Source: Octopus vulgaris
Taxonomy: Eukaryota
Reading direction: 5' to 3'
Assembly (NCBI GenBank): GCA_951406725.2
Contig: OX597820.1
Span: 76,880,001 to 76,944,000 of the forward strand
Length of the DNA stretch: 64,000 bases
How positions within the stretch are numbered: position 1 is the first letter of the stretch; each line of letters opens with the position of its first letter. A program made the position numbers and the translations under genes. This document shows, one piece after another, positions 11,215 to 64,000 of this stretch. Below the pieces are notes generated by a model, which was given only the letters and a program-made list of their open reading frames with translations, ran no database searches and was not told the DNA's origin.

Positions 11215-14200
11215 AAATCTAAATCTATGTATGTGTTCTCTTTTATTTGTTTCTCTCATTAAAGTGCGACCATGCCGAGAAGCAACCTTGAATCGCTGTA
11301 GTCATTAATATCGATCCTGCTACTTATTTTAATATCTCGCACTTGTTTTAGCAATGTCTATTTTAGCCATATCTCATACTTGCGTGCGTGATTTGAAAAA
11401 AATAATTCACTTGGTGTAGTAAATACTGTTGGCATATTAACCGAATGTCTGAGGATTCAGCCAACTATTCTTTTCTTTTTTTCGCGAATGGCGTGAAAGG
11501 ATTTTGATAAAGTTCACTCATTCATTGATTGACCGAATGATCAATCAAACAATCGAATTCTTAATTTGTTAAATTGTAAACCAATTCAAAAATGAATGTA
11601 TTTATTATTGACATACCGACCTTCCGAGATGCAGTTAAACATGTTTCAATACATGAGTTGACGTTAAGGATACAGAAGCGAATAGAAAACCTTCTATAAT
11701 ATCTTTTCTACGAGTGTTTCATAATATTTGGTTGATATTTCCCAGTCGCTGTATCTTCACCATATTTCGGTTTCAATTAATAAACAAGCAAATATATTAC
11801 AGCACAACTACTAAATCTACAACACTCTGTTTCTCTCCAATGCCAAATATATATTAGATAACGGCTGGAGGTAAGTTAATGGATGTTATGACCAACGTTG
11901 TGGCATAAATAAAAAGAAAGGTCTAGTGTTCGGTGACGCTAAAGTGCTAATTGTAAATGGCTCTTATAATTGACATCTTAAACCCGGTGGGAGAGTTATA
12001 GAGTCGGTATTTACTTCCGCCTTAATGGTATAAAAATAAATCAAACAAAACAAATCGTGACTGGAAATATTAAAAAATCATGCTGCTTTCCAAAATGCCA
12101 ATCACTATAATTTTCTTTTACACATCTTACTCTTTTTTATATACATGTCTTACTCATTGTCCAATTATTATAACCGTAATATTATTGATTATGTTCTTTA
12201 TACTGGCAAAGAACCAAAAATTTGTGAAGGAAAAACTATTGTGTAGTTTATCTAGAGCTGATTATTTTATGAACCCCAGAGAAATAAACGGCTAAATCAA
12301 TCCCGCTAGGATATGAAGTATAAGCGTTAGGGGCCAAAAATAATTACTGATAAATTTTTATTCTTTACATTCCCGGAGGCTCTGACACAATACTTATAAA
12401 CAAAGGATTATTTCTTGAAGTGAAGTCAATGATGGGGTGGGGGAGGACAAAGTAAAACACAAGTGCTGAAAATTATGAATTTCCCTACCGGAACATATGG
12501 TTCCAAAGAGCAAAGTACCTTTGCAAACTCGACTTAAATGCCTTGTGCTATAGTATAGCCATGCTTATTAACATTAAAGACAGTATACATAGATTAAGAA
12601 AATATATAAGTATTAACATTGAATACAGTATATAAAGAGGGAGAGGACAGAACGATGAAAAATGTTAACTTGTGTTACAGTTTTAATGTAAGGCTAATAA
12701 AATATACCTCACAAATATTGTGTTGTTGGTATATTAATCTGAAGTGCACATAAAACCTAGAAATTCTTCCCTATTCTAATCCATAAATTTCAAGCATCTG
12801 AAGTAAATCATGTGAATTTTTTCCTAACATTTTTCTCTCTTTTCTTAATTCCTTTCTTCTCTTCACTTTTCTTCCTTAACTTCCTTTTATAATATCTGAA
12901 GAATGTATATGTCCGAAACGTTTCAATCTGTATTTTTTCTTCTTGTTGAGGACAAGTCTTTCGTTATCCGCCAATAGGAGGAACAAAATCAATAATATTA
13001 CGGTTATAATAACCGGAAAATGAGTAAGACATGTAAATAAAATATTGTAAGATGTATAAAAGAAAATTAAATGATATTAATTATGAACGTCTCTTGGACT
13101 TCATTTGTTTTTCTGTAGTTGATTCACTTTATTTGAGTGTAATAAAGATTGTACATACCAAACCACTAAATTGATACAGAATTTCAGTTCCTTGATTTGT
13201 GTATTAACAATATCATTAGAAATTCAGATCCAAAAATGTGCAGCTTTGAGTAACTGCTCTTTGCATTCTGAGTCCAAATCGCGCTACGTTCTTGTTTAGC
13301 CTTTCATTCTCCCAGGGCAGTATAAATAAAGAATAAGGAAGCGATGGGGTTGACTTAATCGATCAGGACTTTTTTGAATCTGTAAGAAATTATTATTTGT
13401 CTTCGACAGTCTTCCTGATGATATGCTAAACCAAAACTCATGTAACATTTGAATAAGAAGTCCCGCTTTGCTGATAATATTGTTCACCTGCGGACCAAAT
13501 CATTTTTAGTAAACTTACAATCAAGTTTTGATCTCATTTTTTTCAGTCCTATTAAAATTATTCAATCTGCTCTTTACAATTTTAAGACGGTAGGATATGT
13601 TATGAACATGATTTGGCTATCATTTCCAGAAAAGAGAGCAATCACTTGGAGACATATGTTGGCTTACATAAGAAACAGAAGAGTACTTCAGTCGATTCGT
13701 TTAATTATATATCATTTCAGATCGGCGAATGGCCTAATTGATATTTCTATGTTGAGAAAAAAATACGTTCCCGACAACGTACACTTGAATATCATATTTA
13801 TTAAAAGCTCTTAAACGACTCTAAATCTTGCATGTGCTATATTCAGGTTTATGTATACATGCGTGGACGCTATTTTCACTGTAATATACAAAACATTACA
13901 AGAAAGTGAAGTCGCCAGATGATGTACAGGTAAGGGATATTAGTCCTATGGGTGTCAATTGTTATTTCATGAAAGCTTGTCAAGGACCGAGTCACGGCTG
14001 TTCCATTGGAAATGGAAGATCCCCACTACGATCGCCTCCACTACTACCACAATAACACTGTTTTTCTCTATGGGCGTGTGTGTATTTGGGTGTATGTGTG
14101 TGTGTGTGTGTGCGTGTTTCTCTATGGGCGTGTATTACCTGAGTGCACGCGTGTATGTGCGTGTGTGAGTCTGTGTTTCTCTGTGGGCGTGTGTATGTGT

Positions 14201-23494: not shown

Positions 23495-23680
23495 TGAGCT
23501 GGCAGAAACGTTAGCACTCGGGCGAAATGCTTAGCGGTATTTCCTCTGTCTTTACGTTCTGAGTTCATATTCCACCGAGGTTGCCTTTGCCTTTCATCCT
23601 TTTGGAGTCGATTAAATAAGTACCAGTTGCGTACTGGGGTGTATGTAATCGACTTAATCCCTTAATCCCCCCTATGTTTA
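23495..23680 (+). mobile_element. SINE family B copy
   Basis: GAGCTGGCAGAAACGTTAGC...GCCTTTCATCCTTTTGGAGTCGATTAAATAAGTACC; colinear with 63828-64000. Confidence 0.88.
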
Positions 23681-23716
23681 GCCCCATATGGGCCATAAAA
23701 AAGATATTATTATTCT

Positions 23717-23885
23717 CGTAACCACCATCAATGATCTTCATCAGCTTGGGGAACAACCAAACTTGACGGGAAGCAAGGTCTGGATTGTAGGAAGAGTGAA
23801 AAATTGTTTTAATGCCCATCTCCGTCAAGTGTTGGATTACCAGGATGTAACTGTGGACAGGTGTATTATCTTGGAGCATTTGATA
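23717..23885 (-). pseudogene. mariner transposase C-terminal relic
   Basis: Translation LQDNTPVH...HSSYNPDLASRQVWLFPKL matches the mariner motif HDNAPxH...HPPYSPDLAPSDFWLFPKL. Confidence 0.8.
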
Positions 23886-24109
23886 AGGCGTTTTGCGATT
23901 AAATATCCTCCTCATCACACTGAAAACCTCTACAAATCAATCTCGTTTACGATTTAGCCAATGGGTCTCGTGTGGATGTTGACTGCACCTTGCGATTGAC
24001 AAATGGATCATCGTGAGCTACTTGGTTCGGTTCTACCAGCAGAAAGTAGGTGCTGGCTCTTCAGCAGGTTCATTCCAATACAATCTGGAGTATTTCACAA
24101 CTTTTCGCA

Positions 24110-30811: not shown

Positions 30812-31745
30812 CTTTGCACACCTTCTAACGCTGGAGATGTACTACGGTATCAGCTGTTCACTATCAGAGAACGAATGTAACACCCCTTATTTTTCGAGCA
30901 CCATCCGGAGGATTCGAGCGGTTCCGGTTTATATGCGTACCATGTTTTGCTCTGTTCAGTCCTTACTTGTTGCATAGTGTCCAATTGACAACCTTTCCTA
31001 TATTGTCATAACGTCTCATATATTCTTTCTGGGCTAGAGGGGTACATTGACTGGTAATTTGGCATACGGTTTCATCATTTTGTCCAGAAATTCTGCACTT
31101 ATCACTTCATGATGCTTTGCCTATTCTGTATTTGATGTAATTGGTTCTTAATGCTTGCTCTTGACCAGCACAGATTAGAGCCTCCGTTTCCGGTTTTAAA
31201 TCGCTTTTAGTCATCCATAGATATCGTTTTCTCTGCCTGTCTTATCCCTATGAAATTGTCCATGCATTCTTTTCTTTATCCACCTATTTTCTGTTTCATT
31301 AATTTTCAAGTCCATGGCATTTTTTTACATAGCAAGCGATGTTGTTTTATTCTACTCTAACGCTGTGTTCGCATCCAATCAGTCCTCTTCCCCCACTTTT
31401 TCTTGATACATACATTCTGTCTTTGTCACTATTTGGGTGGAGTATCCCATATCTAGTCAGTAACGTCCTTGTCATTCTGTCTACACTGTTTACTTCCTCA
31501 ACTGTCCAAGCGATTACCCCCTGCATATATCTAAGGTGTGAAACGGACCATGTTTTGATAGTTTCAATCTTATTTTGTCCGGTTAAATTCAACTTAAGGA
31601 TCAGTGTCAGTCTTAGCAAATTCTCCAACTCACTTTTTTCCGGCATTTTTTTCTCCACAAATTTATCCATTTCCAATATCACCAAGTACTTATAGCTCGT
31701 CTCTTCTATTTGCTTCATAACCTCCCTCGACGGTATCTTTATTTA
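30812..31745 (-). mobile_element. R4/Dong-clade LINE relic
   Basis: The minus strand gives YKYL..., HPNSDKDRMYVSRKSGGRGL and WMTKSDLKPETEALICAGQEQALRTNY, homologous to the element at 43435. The 3' end abuts a TAA-rich tract. Confidence 0.88.
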
Positions 31746-32752: not shown

Positions 32753-32945
32753 TGTAGTAGAAGTGGTAAGTAGCTTGCTTACCAAACACATGGTCGATGT
32801 GCTCGACTAAAGGTGGTGCTCCAACTTAACCGCAATCAAAAATGACAGGAACATGAAAGAAAAAAGTAAAAGAGTAGTAGTAGTAGTAGCAGCAGCAGTA
32901 GTAGTATTAGTAGTAGTATTAGCAGCAGTTGTTGTAGTAGTAGTT

Positions 32946-42764: not shown

Positions 42765-42809
<45 letters not shown>

Positions 42810-42978
42810 CAAATATGTGGACAAACAGCGTCTTTCATTTATTTATACAGAAATATTGAAGATTAAGAACGGAATAAAACGCAGATGCTTTCTCACAAGA
42901 AGATTCATATCTTCATTTGCAACTGTACTGTGCGCTTTCCCAATTGTTAACATGCCTGTGAAACCGTGTGTGTGTATA

Positions 42979-43043
42979 CTCTTTTATACTCTTTTACTTG
43001 TTTCAGTCATTTGACTGCGGTCATGCTGGAGCACCGCCCTTAG
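42979..43043 (-). mobile_element. 3' tail of SINE family A (or its partner LINE), fused to a U6 fragment
   Basis: Minus strand CTAAGGGCGGTGCTCCAGCATGACCGCAGTCAAATGACTGAAACAAGTAAAAGAG, matching the tails at 4890-4947 and 52985-53040. Confidence 0.9.
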
Positions 43044-43091
43044 AAAAAATATGGAACGCTTCACGAATTTGCGTGTCATCCTTGCGCAGGG
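43044..43091 (-). pseudogene. U6: U6 snRNA 3' fragment (retrocopy)
   Basis: Minus strand CCCTGCGCAAGGATGACACGCAAATTCGTGAAGCGTTCCATATTTTTT matches the conserved metazoan U6 3' end. The 5' half, including ACAGAGA, is absent. Confidence 0.93.
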
Positions 43092-43276
43092 TATATTTAT
43101 AAGTTTTTATGCATGCATGTATGTGTATGTTTTAACCATGTTAGTATGGATGTACATATATCTTAGCTTTGTTTCGTAAATTTAAACTCGGCCATTCTTT
43201 GCAACGAAAGGCACTCCACTGGAATTGAGACAATAACAGTAACAAATTCTGCACGGATGTTTGGACATATAAATAT

Positions 43277-43357
43277 GGCATATGGCGTAGTGGTTAAGAG
43301 CGCGGGCTACTAACCCCAAGATACCGAGTTCGATTCCAGCCAGTGACCTGAATAATG

Positions 43358-43435
<78 letters not shown>

Positions 43436-45586
43436 TGTTCAAGGCATTTACTGCAGTGATATCGCAAAGGCTGAACAAGCACCTGGACGAAAACAAACTG
43501 TTCCCAGAAGAGCAGAAAGGATGCCGCAAGGGCTCATAAGGCTGTAAAGATCAACTAATGATTAATAAAGCCGTAACTGAAGACAGCCACACAAAGAAGA
43601 AAGGCCTCAGTATGGCCTGGATTGACTACAAAAAGGCGTTTGATAGCATCCCCCACACATGGATCCTCGAAACACTAGCCATTAACAAAGTAGCACCAAC
43701 AATCATAAAATTCATAGAGCACTCTATGAATAAATGGCAAACAGTCCTACACCTCCAAACAAAAGAGGGACTCATGAAAACCAAAGACATCCCCATTAGA
43801 AGAGGAATATTCCAGAGAGACACGCTCTCTCCACTCCTTTTCTGCTTGGCACTGTCACCTCTATCTGATATGCTAAATAGAACTGGATGCGGATATAAAT
43901 GTTACGGCAAAACGATCAGCCACCTTTTATATATGGATGACCTAAAACTATACGCTGCAAATGACAAACAGCTGGAAACACTATTAAAGACAGTTCATGG
44001 ATTTACCAAAAAAATAGATATGATATTTGGATTAGAAAAATGCGCCAAAGTAACCATGAAAAGAGGAAAACTAGTTAAGAGTAACAACATCACACTAGAT
44101 AAAACCAATGAAATAAAAGAATTAGACCAAAGCCAAACTTACAAATACTTAGGAATCCATGAACTAGATAAGACACAACACACACAATTGAAAGAGAAAA
44201 TAAAAAAAGAATATTATAGACGAGTTAGATCAATACTAAAAACAGAGCTCAATGCTAAAAACAAGATAATAGGTATCAACACTTTAGCTGTCCCAGTTAT
44301 AAGTTACAGCTACAATATCCTTAACTGGACACGAAATGAACTGTCCAAAATAGATAGGAAAACAAGAAAAATACTGACAGGATCTAGGATGCATCACCCA
44401 AAATCTGACATAGAAAGACTATATATACAACGTATAGAAGGTGGTAGAGGCCTTATACAGCTGGAAAACTACTATAAAATAACCACCATAGGACTGCAAA
44501 AATAGCTACTTCAGAAGGAAGGAAAACTGATCCAGATAGCAGCAAAACACGAGCAAAACAAAAAACTGTTCTCAGTATTTAAGGAAGCTGACAAATACAA
44601 ACAAGAAATCATACCATCTAATAAACACAAAGAAGAAGAAGAAGATGATGAAGAAACAACAAAAGCTATCAAACAAATGAAATCCAAACTAAAAATAGAA
44701 CAGCAACAAGCCATGATAAAACGATGGCAAGAAAAACCCCTTCATGGTAAATACTGCACTAAACTAAACGCAAAAGAAATAGACAAAGAAAAATCCCAGC
44801 AATGGTTGAGAAGCTCAGGACTCAAAGCAGAAACAGAGGGATTTTTAATTGCAGCACAAGACAAAAGCCTCCCCACCAGAAATTACCAAAAACATGTAAT
44901 GAAAAGAAATATTACAAGTAACTGCAGAATATGTGGAGATGGACAAGAAACAATAAATCATATTATCTCTAGCTGCCCAGTCCTGGCTAAGAAGGAATAT
45001 ATTCACAGACATGACAGAGTTGGAACCTACATACATTGGAAGCTATGCCAACATTATGGAATAACAACAGAAAAAAGATGGTATAGGCACACACCAGAAA
45101 AGGTCACAGAAAACGAGAAAGCAACCATACTCTGGGATATGCCGATACACACAGATAGAGAAATTAAGGCCAACAGACCAGATATAGTTGTCAGAGATCA
45201 TGAAGAAAAAAAATGCTTTCTAATTGATGTATCAATACCGGCAGATGACAACGTGTCTCTAAAAGAAATGGAGAAACTCTCAAAATACAAAGACCTGGAA
45301 ATAGAGGTAACTAGAATGTGGAACCTGAAAACAGAAACAATTCCTATCATAGTAGGTGCATTAGGCATGATAAACAAATATTCAGACAAATACATAACAA
45401 AAACACCAGGACTTACAAACACATATAACATACAGAAAATTGCACTACTAGGCACTGCATACATCCTAGGCAGAACACTTTCCATACAATAACCATCAGA
45501 GCATCACAACAAATCACAGCACATACCCAAGGCACACAGAGCTGCGCTCGGTAGTGAAGTGAAAGCACGCTATAAAAATAAAACTA

Positions 45587-45657
<71 letters not shown>

Positions 45658-47859: not shown

Positions 47860-48242
47860 GTGTGTGTGTGTGCACTGACGCATGAGTGTGTGTTTGTACA
47901 TATATCCCATTCATCCATTTCCATATATATACGTCCAAACATCCATGCAGAATGTCTTCCTCTTATCGACTAAATTCCAATGGAGTGGCTTTGTTTGCGA
48001 AGAAAGGCCGAGTTTAAATTTACGAAACAAATCTAGAAATGTATGTACATCCATACCAACATGATTAATTCATGCACATACACGCATGCATACATGGCAG
48101 CTTATAAATATACACCCACACTATTGCAAACGAAGGTATGAATCGTGTTGTGAGAAAGCATCTGCGTCTTATTCCGTTCCTAATCTTCCATACATCTGAA
48201 TAAATATATGAAAGGCGCTTTGTTTCGTTCACATATTTGTAC
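47860..48242. repeat. Inverted paralog of 42808-42978 + 43091-43278 + 45873-45970
   Basis: For example TTTGTTTCGTAAATTTAAACTCGGCC (43168-43193) and ACGCAGATGCTTTCTCACAA (42879-42898) occur as reverse complements here. Confidence 0.88.
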
Positions 48243-48315
48243 TTCTATTTAAATCGCAGCAAACTATTGTTATTATCGAAATCGTCTTTATCGTTTAATA
48301 TTCAATATTCGTCTA

Positions 48316-50599: not shown

Positions 50600-51420
50600 C
50601 GGGGGTTAAAATTAATTTGGTTTTATAGAATTTGGCCAGGCGATGAAAACTGAGATGAATGAGAAAGTTGCAGCTGCACTGTGTGAGAAGGTGATCAGTG
50701 ATAATGATGATACGCTCCAGGAGTAAAATATGAAGAAGAATAGAGAAAATATTATCAAGAGGAAAGAGGAAGTCTTACACGGAGAGGTTTTTCCAACAAA
50801 CATCAGATGAAGCTGAGGAAGACTCCTGGAGAGGGATAAGACGGTCATATAAAGAAGGAAACAGGAGTGGTTCTAGTTGCTCAAGAACAAGCTTTGAGAA
50901 CCAACTAATGAGTAGCATTTATAAGAGAGGTGTATCAGGTTTGTGTAGACTATGTGGAGAGACAGCTGAGATAATTATCGGATGCACAAAAGTGACTGAA
51001 AAAGTGTACAAAAATTCTACAACAAAGAGGCATTTCTGTACGCATTGGGGGAAATCCAAAAATTATGAGCTAGAAAAGAAACCTTTTCTAGTAACCGAAC
51101 ATGACCAAGTGAAACTCACACGGGATACGCCAATAAATATAGACAACAAACTGAAACATAACCGAGCAGATACCACTGTCCTAATGAAGGAGTGAACAGA
51201 ACGGATCTTCATCGACATAGCAATACCTGCAGACTAGAATATTGTGAAATCAGAGTCCGAGAAAGTCGGGCAAAACTAGGACCAAGGATTGTATGTGAAA
51301 ATAATCCATAGAGCCTCAAAAGTTAGTGTGGTGCCTTCTGAGATCGGAGTATTTGGGACCACCTCAAAGAGAGAAATTGTAACATCAAAAGCTGCAAAAG
51401 CGAAGCTTCTCCAAGAATCC
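50600..51420 (+). mobile_element. R4/Dong-type LINE relic (zinc knuckle and endonuclease region)
   Basis: GHIKKETGVVLVAQEQALRTN, CRLCGET..IIIGC, KLKHNRAD and IFIDIAIP fragments, with stops and frameshifts. Confidence 0.8.
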
Positions 51421-51559: not shown

Positions 51560-51728
51560 GGTCAATTATATCGACCCCAGTGTTCAACTAGTACTTATTT
51601 TATCGACCCCGAAAGGATGAAAGGCAAAGTCGACCTCGGCGGAATTTGAACTCGGAGTGTAGCGACAAAAAAAATGCCGCTAAGCATTTCGTCCGGCGTA
51701 CTAACCATTCTGCCGACTCATCGCCTTC

Positions 51729-51793
<65 letters not shown>

Positions 51794-51945
51794 TAATCCT
51801 TTCTACTATAGGCACAAGACCTGAACTTTTGGGTTGGTAGTAAGTCGATTACATCGACCCCATTGTTTCACCGGTACATAATTTATCGAACCCGAAAGGA
51901 TGAAATGCAAACTCTACCTCAGAACGTGAAGTTAGACGAAATGCC
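51560..51945 (-). mobile_element. Two SINE family B copies (51560-51728 and 51797-51945) separated by (AAT)n
   Basis: TTTTATCGACCCCGAAAGGATGAAAGGCAAAGTCGACCTCGGCGGAATTTGAACTC core, with a degenerate second copy. Confidence 0.85.
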
Positions 51946-52977
51946 TAGACTTCAAATCAGAACTTAAGGCAATAAATAAATACCACAAAGTATCTTACAC
52001 ATCTTTCCGTGCCAGCTTCTACAGGTATATTGAATTGTATGAACAACAATATACTGTGCATTTCATCGATGTTCGTTTATAGCCTGAATTATTTGAATTT
52101 TTTTCCAAAGGGAATTATATCGCAAACCCTTTTCACAGTTGCACAGAATTGTAATTTAACACTACGATTTTCACCGATAAACATTGTGGTGGAAACGTAA
52201 TTCAATGCAGCCATTCCTTTATCATAAATACCCTCAGTAAATTGCAAAGCAGTGCATTTGTTTTACCAGTGTGCATACAAACACAATAGAATCAAGTACA
52301 AATTAGCGTTTTTTTCCTTGCAAATTTATTCAACGTGCAGTTTTTAACTATACATATTCAGGTGAAAGCGAAATCAAACTCGGAACAATGTAGTTTGTTC
52401 AGTTAACTCATTAGAAAAGTGCTATGGGGCTACTTATGATAATAGGTACATGGGTTCTTAAAAATATCTTTCAAATCACATTCCTTCAAACTAATTGTGA
52501 AGTTAAAATCCGCTCAAACTGCAATATAAATTTCCTTCATTGTTAAACCGTTTAAATGAATTCACCTGGAATATATTTTGACTCACGTAATGATGGATGG
52601 ATAAGATATAAATTTTATCCATTCAGTCTTCCATTCATTTTCTCAGCTTGCTAATCCTGGTAGGATCATGGGATGGGGCGGTGTAGAGTCCGCTAGCATA
52701 TCCTGCATGAGGTCATATTAGAAGCAACCGTTGTAATGCTTCCATTCTGGATTCCTAAACGTAACCAACTGATATTTTGGATATTGTTCATCCATTTTGT
52801 TACTGGTCTACACCTAGGTCTCCTACCTGTTAGCTTAACTTGAACAACCTATATTGTGATTCTTTCTCATGATATTCTCAACACATGTCTGTAGTACTGG
52901 ACATGTGATTAGACCCAAGTAGTACGGGTATATAACGGGAATATAGCTGAAAATAGTCCCATCTATCTATATATATA

Positions 52978-53389
52978 TACTCTTTTACTCTTTTACTTGT
53001 TTCAGTCATTTGACTGCGGCCATGCTGGAGCACCACCTTTAATCGAGCTACTCGACTCCGGGACTTATTCTTTGTAAGCCCAGTACTTATTCTATCGGTC
53101 TTTTTGCCGAACCACCAAGTGACGGGGACATAAACACACCAGCATCGGTTGTCAAACAATGCTAGGGGGACAAACACAGACACCCAAACATACATGCACA
53201 CATATACATATATATATACATATATACGACGGGCTTCTTTCAGTTTCCGTCTACCAAATCCACTCACAAGGCTTTGGTCGAACCGAGGCTATAGCAGAAG
53301 ACACTTGCCCAAGGTGCCACGCAGTGGGACTGAACCCGGAACCATGTGGTTGGTAAACAAGCTACTTACCACACAGCCACTCCTGTGCC
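52978..53389 (-). mobile_element. SINE family A copy (full length)
   Basis: Head to tail colinear with 4884-5284. Confidence 0.93.
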
Positions 53390-53940
53390 TATATATATAT
53401 ATATATGTATGGCAATTTTTATGTCTGTTACTATCTTGTTGCCTACATCAGTGAATCAATCTTGATGATACTTTGTATTCATATTAGACTAATATCCAAT
53501 TAAATCATAGGCTAATTGGATTTCAATGAAAAGTTAAAACGGACCCCCTAGGAAAAACACATCTGATATGAATTAAGTAAGGCTTCTGTAAGGCTGAACT
53601 ATGAACTCTTTCATGTAAATAGCGAGCGACGTTGGTGAGAACAACTCAGCTTTCCAAAAGGAAAAATATTTCAGCATGAAGGGCCCGTACGCAGTTCACA
53701 TTAAGGGCACGATAAACCACAGGAATCGCGGATAAGACATGGTACAATGTAATCGCCACTGACCTGGAAGTTGGTTAATCATGAGATTAATTTGATGAAT
53801 TAAATCCAAAACAACATAACATCTTAAACATTTTTATCGCGCAACACGAGGTACAGTCACGCTACGTTAAGCTACGACAACCCCAGCTACAATACGCGGG
53901 CTATTTGACAATGGATTTTTAAATCGTTCTATTTATCTGA

Positions 53941-54605: not shown

Positions 54606-54904
54606 TCTTGATCCGTGACCATAAAATAGATTTGCTATATTACCAAGAAAAAATAATGCTCGTGTGCCTCTTATTTAAAAGAAAGTATCAAATTTAAAAG
54701 CTAAAATATTTTCAAATCAGTTTTCATTAAGAAATTCGATTTACTGTCAATAAGAAATTACATTTTGATTGACGTATACTCCATGAAGGCCATTTACGGG
54801 CAATATATTTCTAACTTCTATGAAAATTAAGTGGAAACTATGTTATAAAGACGTAATTTTTTTTCTTTTCATATTATTGAAAAATAAATGAATGAGAATC
54901 AATA

Positions 54905-55108
54905 CTGGTTTCAAATTTTAGCACAAGGCCAGCAATTTCAGTGGAGAGGGAAAATCGATTACATCGATTGATATGCATAATTGGTACTTATTTTATCGAT
55001 GAAAGATACACTCTGCTGCAGCGTGACTGGAACCCTCAACGTAAAGACGGACGAAATGCTTTTTACCCTTTCGCCCGGCATCTTAACGATTCTGACGGCT
55101 CGCGACCA
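54905..55108 (-). mobile_element. SINE family B copy (degenerate)
   Basis: TGGTTTCAAATTTTAGCACAAGGCCAGCAATTTC...GGTACTTATTTTATCGA...TTAACGATTCTG. Confidence 0.7.
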
Positions 55109-59075: not shown

Positions 59076-59109
59076 TGCTGACTGCAGTATCAGCAAACCA
59101 ATCATTCAA

Positions 59110-59483
59110 TTTATCTAGATACAATGATAGCCGATGTGTCATATGCCAATTCATGCATTCCGGCCAATATAGGAACGCAAAAAATCGAAAAAATATTCAC
59201 AAACACAAATATGAACTGCAAAAGTAGAAATTTAATTTACTGCATCAAATGCCCGAATTGTGAAGAACTATATGTAAGTCATGCTGGAAATGCACGTGTG
59301 CAGCGACAGCAAATTAGAAAACCAGATATCCGTCAGATAACATTGAGCAACAATCTAGCAACCTGTAGTCGGAAAATATTTATATTTCAAATCTACAAAT
59401 TATACAGTCCAAGTGAAATAGAGAGAAAAATTAGAGAAAATAATTTTATTGATAAATTCCAACCCAAGTTAAATAAACAATAA
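59110..59483 (+). pseudogene. Penelope-like element GIY-YIG endonuclease relic
   Basis: RCVIC (frameshifted), then NCKSRNLIYCIKCPNCEELYV...ERKIRENNFIDKFQPKLN, typical of PLE GIY-YIG domains. Confidence 0.85.
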
Positions 59484-63827: not shown

Positions 63828-64000
63828 GCGATGAGCTGGCAGAAACGTTAGCGAGCCGGGCGAAATGCTTAGTGGTATTTCGTCTGTCGTTATGTGCTGA
63901 GTTCATATTCCGCCGAGGTCGACTTTGCCTTTCATCATTTCGGGGTTGATAAATAAAGTACCAGTTTCGCACTGGGCTCGATGTAATCGACTCAATCCGT
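63828..64000 (+). mobile_element. SINE family B copy (runs off the window)
   Basis: GAGCTGGCAGAAACGTTAGC...GAGGTCGACTTTGCCTTTCATC...GATAAATAAAGTACCAG. Confidence 0.9.

What the first reader, a model, noticed from the sequence alone, without database searches (positions are those of the whole stretch)
42974..43095. U6 snRNA/SINE-tail chimeric retrocopy with TSD and an in-window empty site
Seen on minus: ~48 nt of the U6 3' end including its U-tract, joined directly to the last ~65 nt of the family A tail. The insert is flanked by GTATA at 42974-42978 and 43091-43095, and the inverted paralog near 48100-48125 reads GTGTATATTTATAAG with no insert. Known: U6/LINE-1 chimeras in mammals arise by template switching or by RtcB ligation of the U6 cyclic-phosphate end. 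Inference: the same process operates with a non-L1 partner in an invertebrate, or this is a truncated copy of a U6-headed SINE family.
Basis: partly seen in the sequence, partly recalled or inferred. Interest (0 to 1): 0.75.

Follow-up and report, generated by a model that had tools for sequence, protein, structure and literature searches.

The report
U6 fragment fused to SINE tail
A 112-base insert joins the last 47 bases of the splicing RNA U6 to the last 65 bases of an abundant jumping element and was likely pasted in as one piece; this kind of chimera is already described in platypus and lizard, and here it likely turns up in an invertebrate.

Summary
On the minus strand, the 3' 47 nt of U6 (Rfam RF00026, E 6e-10), ending in six T, is joined without microhomology to the last 65 nt of a tRNA-headed SINE tail. 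Ten other tail copies lie in the window, none with U6 upstream. A 5-bp direct repeat flanks the insert. An 83-85% identical inverted duplicate at 47.9-48.3 kb has that motif once and no insert, though it also lacks about 41 nt nearby. The tail differs from the family majority at 2 of 55 positions, so the insert is likely far younger than the duplication. This anatomy (5'-truncated U6, short non-L1 LINE/SINE tail, 1-9 bp TSD) is Doucet et al.'s Group IV, as in platypus U6-L2/Mon-1 and lizard U6-AnolisSINE2. Best reading: a dead, one-off chimeric retrocopy (0.75), joined by RNA ligation or an end-to-end template jump. A U6-headed family (0.15) is not excluded, because no genome or read-level test of junction recurrence was obtained. 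The only new aspect is the host, likely an octopod (recalled, not shown by a tool). Verdict: new member of a known kind.

The parts
43044..43090 (-). 3' part of U6 snRNA (model positions ~59-105 plus a sixth T); 5'-truncated within the internal stem-loop, so it lacks the ACAGAGA box and AGC triad and cannot act as U6
   Evidence: Rfam RF00026 E 6.1e-10; sequence; motif roles from established knowledge
42979..43043 (-). Last 65 nt of the family A SINE tail: two predicted hairpins and two 8-nt terminal repeat units with an extra TA between them
   Evidence: 10 other copies; 2 of 51 differences from the majority over 43039 onward, and the four bases before match by eye; fold z -1.61
43091..43095 (.). 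Target-site duplication, copy at the element's 5' side; its innermost base also matches U6 (1-nt microhomology)
42974..42978 (.). Target-site duplication, copy at the element's 3' side; its first two bases continue the tail repeat
48109..48113 (.). Empty site: single copy of the motif in the inverted paralog
47915..48254 (+). Inverted duplicate of 42795-43285 (83-85% identical), lacking the insert and about 41 further nt (locus 42923-42965); identity unknown
52976..53390 (-). Reference full-length family A SINE (tRNA-like head, microsatellite middle, shared tail), one of the least decayed copies in the window
   Evidence: tRNA origin of the head is recalled, ARAGORN finds no tRNA

Best explanation
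The insert joins the 3' end of U6 directly to the 65-nt tail of an abundant SINE inside one short target duplication, and is likely a dead, one-off chimeric retrocopy made in a single target-primed reverse transcription by the unidentified non-L1 LINE that recognises this tail. Shown: the anatomy, the enclosing repeat, the empty paralog, the lack of junction homology. Inferred steps: (1) the LINE enzyme bound the tail, which is kept just long enough to hold both predicted terminal hairpins; (2) the nicked target primed on the terminal repeat through a 2-nt TA match, with the extra TA between the repeat units likely from slippage; (3) U6 was attached at its mature oligo-U end. I favour RtcB-type ligation of the U6 cyclic-phosphate end to a cleaved SINE/LINE RNA before insertion (about 55%) over an end-to-end template jump during synthesis (about 45%); (4) synthesis stopped in the U6 internal stem-loop and closed on a 1-nt match. 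The copy has no promoter and is not expected to have a function.
For: The junction is at the exact U6 end with six T, within the 4-6 T typical of ligated U6/L1 products (PMC6789731 passages). The SINE column just upstream of the junction is A in 9 of 10 other copies and T in none, so there is no junction homology. One repeat encloses both parts and the paralog holds the motif once. Tail divergence is 2 of 55, against about 15% between the duplicated flanks, so the insert likely postdates the duplication. Several family A copies also end tail-repeat-then-TA (52976, 16774, 38800). The same anatomy is reported for 40 platypus U6-L2/Mon-1 chimeras and six lizard U6-AnolisSINE2 chimeras. None of the 10 other tail copies has U6 upstream.
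Against: Only one copy was seen; recurrence of the junction elsewhere in the genome or in RNA is untested. The TSD is short and partly ambiguous (3.9% by chance with slack). The paralog's anchor on one side is 8 low-complexity bases before a ~41-nt indel. The partner LINE was not found, so the tail may come from the LINE or another SINE that shares it (copy 11238 has the tail with another body). The hairpins show no covariation beyond shuffles (78.5% paired, 287 of 500 shuffles as high). Nothing here separates ligation from template jumping.
Confidence: 0.75

Rival explanations
1. A 5'-truncated copy of a U6-headed retroposon family (SINEU- or snoRTE-like): a master U6+tail unit of about 170-175 nt, transcribed from a host promoter and amplified by the tail's LINE.
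For: The retained tail is what a stringent LINE would need. SINEU families spread despite internal oligo-T (PMC4494074 passages). An Octopus vulgaris annotation lists one undescribed 'SINE U-L1' family (52,753 bp; two young near-full-length insertions covering 353 bp, about 176 bp each) and one 'SINE U' family (PMC13282606). That length fits full U6 plus this tail, but also fits U1/U2 genes labelled by likeness to SINEU. Its sequence was not seen, and the window's species is not established.
Against: 1 of 11 tail copies in the window carries U6. Six T inside the unit would end Pol III transcription before the tail, and animal snRNA promoters are external. No U6-headed SINE family surfaced in searches. 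The anatomy matches independent chimeras in platypus.
Confidence: 0.15
2. Two separate insertions: a 5'-truncated SINE tail first, then a U6 piece at its 5' junction (or the reverse).
For: Tail copies are dense (11 in 64 kb) and this area collects insertions. The TSD is short.
Against: It needs base-exact nesting between TSD and tail with no second TSD. A U6 3' piece without poly(A) or a LINE tail has no handle for priming; Doucet et al. found only chimeras for stringent LINEs. Both parts look equally young.
Confidence: 0.04
3. A patch at a DNA break: free cDNAs of U6 and of the SINE end were joined and captured by end-joining repair, and the short repeat is incidental.
For: 1-2 nt microhomologies at both outer ends; a ~41-nt indel 8 nt from the site.
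Against: Both parts lie in the same sense and each ends at its natural RNA 3' end. The target is duplicated, not deleted, relative to the paralog. The 3' end looks like that of ordinary family A insertions.
Confidence: 0.05

Closest known systems
Group IV snRNA pseudogenes with stringent LINE/SINE partners: platypus U6-L2 and U6-Mon-1, Anolis U6-L2, U6-RTEX-2 and U6-AnolisSINE2 (Doucet et al. 2015, PMC4476161; sections 10 and 11 read)
   Same: 5'-truncated U6 with intact 3' end, short non-L1 tail ending in a simple repeat, TSD within 1-9 bp, no poly(A).
   Different: Host is likely an octopod; that paper's section 10 covers marsupials to amphibians, and 'invertebrate' does not occur in its main text. 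Partner LINE clade is not identified here. One copy only.
Mammalian U6/LINE-1 chimeras (Moldovan et al. 2019, PMC6789731; passages read)
   Same: U6 joined at its oligo-U end (4-6 T) to a 5'-truncated retroelement.
   Different: Those mostly hold full-length U6, an L1 partner and poly(A); here U6 is cut to 47 nt and the partner is a 65-nt SINE-type tail.
SINEU (U1/U2-headed SINEs of crocodilians; Kojima 2015, PMC4494074; passages read) and platypus snoRTE (mentioned in PMC7245038 passage)
   Same: Small nuclear RNA piece placed 5' of a retroelement tail.
   Different: Those are multicopy families with one shared structure and U1/U2 or snoRNA heads; multicopy status is untested here and the head is U6.
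Magnaporthe WEIRD/MGL/Mg-SINE chimeras (Gogvadze et al. 2007, PMC2104539; abstract only)
   Same: Non-coding RNA fused to a LINE or SINE 3' part inside direct repeats, outside vertebrates.
   Different: Fungal; the head is WEIRD RNA, not U6.

Membership tests
Group IV snRNA/non-LTR chimeric retrocopy (Doucet 2015) | snRNA sequence directly fused 5' of a LINE or SINE 3' part, same sense | tested here: met
Group IV snRNA/non-LTR chimeric retrocopy (Doucet 2015) | U6 present to its 3' oligo-U end at the junction | tested here: met
   Rfam alignment reaches model position 105; six T
Group IV snRNA/non-LTR chimeric retrocopy (Doucet 2015) | One TSD encloses both parts | tested here: met
   5-bp repeat (2-5 bp after microhomology), single copy in the paralog; chance 0.2% exact, 3.9% with slack
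Group IV snRNA/non-LTR chimeric retrocopy (Doucet 2015) | Independent origin: junction not shared with other loci | not testable with these tools
   No genome held; no read-level result; 0 tail loci in two public collections
Group IV snRNA/non-LTR chimeric retrocopy (Doucet 2015) | Partner LINE sharing the tail identified | tested here: inconclusive
   None of the 10 other tail copies shows LINE-like sequence upstream; the neighbouring RT element lacks the tail (no hit there)
U6/LINE-1 chimera | 3' partner is L1 with a poly(A) end | tested here: not met
   Partner is a SINE-type tail ending in an 8-nt tandem repeat
SINEU-like snRNA-headed family | Many copies with the same chimeric structure | tested here: inconclusive
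   1 of 11 tail copies in 64 kb; genome-wide count not possible
SINEU-like snRNA-headed family | Head from U1 or U2 | tested here: not met
   Head is U6
Functional U6 gene (Group I) | Full length with ACAGAGA box and upstream promoter | tested here: not met
   The unbroken match covers only model positions 59-105, and upstream DNA is shared with the empty paralog

The most novel reading that the evidence does not exclude
This is a 5'-truncated copy of an undescribed U6-headed retroposon family in octopods (full U6 plus the 65-nt tail, about 170-175 nt), born by RNA ligation and spreading through the tail's LINE; it may be the unlabelled 'SINE U-L1' family of the O. vulgaris annotation. It would be a SINE-like family with a U6 head, of which my searches found none, and a live case of SINE birth by tail capture.
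Probability: 0.13. Interest if true: 0.7.

Novelty: new member of a known kind. Interest (0 to 1): 0.3.

Why it matters
As a one-off it extends U6 chimera formation, reported for vertebrates, to what is likely a mollusc, which fits an ancient route shared by animals. SINE-rich octopod genomes would then be a good place to count such chimeras and ask whether junction positions favour RNA ligation or template jumping with stringent LINEs. Doucet et al. link this process to how SINEs gain their tails. The copy itself likely does nothing. It would matter much more if the junction recurred as a family.

Tried and rejected
No whole genome is held. Public runs: 24 rows listed, best share 0.51 of 51 words, three coded organisms at 0.12 or more. 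No read-level result was obtained, so these rows are not used as evidence, and junction recurrence, expression and an empty allele stay open. An exact 38-nt tail motif from another copy found 0 stretches in metagenome contigs and 0 in prokaryote genome contigs, so no outside tail loci could be scanned for U6 or for a partner LINE. Earlier findings: nothing by sequence or by place. Host taxon: the RT homologue search and cluster look-up gave no organism names. Covariation in the tail hairpins was null against shuffles; folding z -1.61, 8 of 200 shuffles as good. Rejected: (a) the Rfam microRNA hits (microsatellite artefacts, all below gathering; 113 weaker hits of 263 were not listed, so further weak snRNA pieces cannot be excluded); (b) the adjacent RT element as partner (ends in AAT repeats, no tail hit); (c) a 3' transduction including 42923-42973 (the paralog continues directly after the motif, 7 of 8 bases, and no second repeat closes the longer span); (d) loss of the insert from the paralog (the insert looks much younger than the duplication). 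Literature searches listed no U6/LINE or U6/SINE chimera from an invertebrate (judged from titles and abstract starts); the library lacks most subscription papers and Repbase reports.

Full report
Observation. The minus strand reads: upstream flank, 5-bp motif (43095-43091), 47 nt of U6 (43090-43044), 65 nt of SINE tail (43043-42979), the motif again (42978-42974). cmscan places the U6 part on RF00026 positions 59-105 (42.8 bits, E 6.1e-10). By my count 43 of 47 letters equal the consensus and the other four are marked as favoured. Identity to the host's own U6 could not be checked, as no genome is held. The piece starts inside the internal stem-loop and lacks the ACAGAGA box and AGC triad (roles from established knowledge), so it is not a working U6. 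It was the only U6 hit among the 150 listed of 263 window hits.

The 3' partner. BLASTN found ten other tail copies in the window and nhmmer the same ten. Eight continue upstream into the family A body, whose head looks tRNA-derived (recalled; ARAGORN finds no tRNA). One (32876) joins a piece of the head directly to the tail. One (11238) has the tail behind a different body. None has U6 upstream. The tail is thus shared by more than one element, and the donor may be the SINE, another SINE or their LINE. The chimera's tail differs from the majority at 2 of 51 columns, plus four matching bases read, so 2 of 55; the other copies differ at 1-15. The tail ends in an 8-nt repeat, not poly(A), so the partner is not L1; 8-nt terminal repeats recall CR1, which is a lead only. 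RNAfold predicts three hairpins in intact copies. The junction falls two bases from the foot of the first, so the chimera keeps the last two whole. This structure is predicted only: folding z -1.61, and no covariation above shuffles (287 of 500 as high).

Junction. The U-tract has six T. The family column just upstream of the junction is A in 9 of 10 copies and C in one, so the join used no homology. U6/L1 products in HeLa cells end in about 4-6 T (PMC6789731 passages).

Target site. The 5-bp repeat alone is modest evidence: 43 of 20000 random placements without slack, 788 of 20000 with two bases of slack. Two of its bases continue the tail repeat and one matches U6, so the duplication is 2-5 bp. 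The inverted paralog supplies the support. One flank aligns up to the motif (164 of 192 identical), the motif stands once at 48109-48113, and 7 of the next 8 bases match. A net ~41-nt indel follows, then 131 columns at 84%. The weak point is that 8-base, low-complexity anchor. As the flanks are about 15% apart and the tail about 4% from its family, the insert is likely much younger than the duplication, and loss from the paralog is unlikely. Copies 52976, 16774 and 38800 also pass from the terminal repeat into TA, which fits priming through a TA match.

Mechanism. Shown: anatomy, enclosing repeat, empty paralog, no junction homology. Inferred: a stringent LINE enzyme bound the tail, primed at the TA match, copied the tail and then U6, and stopped in the U6 stem-loop. 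The join was made either on RNA by RtcB, which links the U6 2',3'-cyclic phosphate to 5'-OH RNAs including non-L1 RNA (PMC6789731 passages), or by a jump onto the free U6 end, as Doucet et al. proposed. I put ligation slightly ahead (55:45) because it explains both the choice of U6 and the exact end; nothing here tests it, and a cyclic-phosphate U6 end in this host is assumed.

Comparison. Doucet et al. 2015 (PMC4476161; passages and sections 10-11 read) describe this structure. Almost all platypus U6-L2/Mon-1 chimeras have a 5'-truncated U6 before a short L2 piece, with 1-9 bp TSDs in 72.5% of 40. The lizard has U6 chimeras with L1, L2, RTEX-2 and six with AnolisSINE2. A non-L1 or SINE partner is therefore known. 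Their section 10 runs from marsupials to amphibians. Searches listed no invertebrate U6 chimera (titles and abstract starts only; the library lacks most subscription papers). Non-vertebrate chimeras with another head exist in Magnaporthe (PMC2104539, abstract). An earlier AI note from another genome describes a similar U6/tail chimera; it is a lead, not support.

Family or one-off. This is the open question. Against a family: 1 of 11 tails in the window, an internal six-T run that would stop Pol III, and external snRNA promoters (PMC4494074 passages). For it: SINEU spread despite internal oligo-T, and the O. vulgaris annotation lists an undescribed 'SINE U-L1' family, 52,753 bp in all, with two young near-full-length insertions covering 353 bp (PMC13282606: passages, part 2 of 3 of the text, supplementary file 1). 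About 176 bp fits full U6 plus this tail, but equally U1 or U2 genes. The consensus is in a deposit I could not read, and the window's species is not established. Public runs holding parts of the locus were listed but no read-level result was obtained, and an exact tail motif found nothing in two contig collections. Other papers seen only as passages and not decisive: PMC4758252, PMC4824008, PMC5786205, PMC3531059, PMC7245038; PMC11838501 as abstract and outline. The supplements of Doucet et al. were not read and may list further species.

Verdict. Real, correctly described, and a new member of a known kind: one-off chimeric retrocopy 0.75, U6-headed family 0.15, break patch 0.05, two insertions 0.04. 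Interest 0.3.

Noticed in passing
window 43436-45590 (+): 5'-truncated non-LTR element between two (AAT)n runs: RT (PF00078, E 5e-19) and zf-RVT (E 8e-6) in frames split by stops. Layout and target recall the Dong/R4 clade; related fragments at 30945-31730 (-) and 50917-51369 (+). It lacks the family A tail.
   Followed up: partly
window 43277-43350 (+): Short tRNA-like element followed by (AAT)n, single in the window, lying at the edge of the duplicated segment; the RT element sits in its AAT run.
   Followed up: no
window 32760-32880 (+): Short family A copy in which a piece of the head is joined directly to the last ~85 nt, beside (ATT)n and (AGT)n runs; suggests the tail end is a separable unit.
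   Followed up: no
window 11235-11305 (-): Diverged tail copy behind a body that is not family A: the tail is shared by more than one element.
   Followed up: partly
window 42795-43285 and 47915-48254: Inverted duplication, 83-85% identical, 4.6 kb apart, no third copy in the window; unidentified. A net ~41-nt indel lies 8 nt from the insertion site.
   Followed up: partly
window 23495-23660, 51561-51920, 63828-63998, 2558-2772, 54901-55005: A second SINE-like family, several copies beside (AAT)n runs.
   Followed up: no
window 59082-59483 (+) and 23565-23936 (-): Open frames that recall a Penelope-type GIY-YIG nuclease and a mariner transposase piece (recalled); Pfam gave no family at E<=0.01.
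   Followed up: partly
PMC13282606, Table 1 and Table S1: O. vulgaris annotation lists 'SINE U' (369,490 bp) and 'SINE U-L1' (52,753 bp) families without comment; worth checking whether they are snRNA genes or snRNA-headed retroposons.
   Followed up: partly
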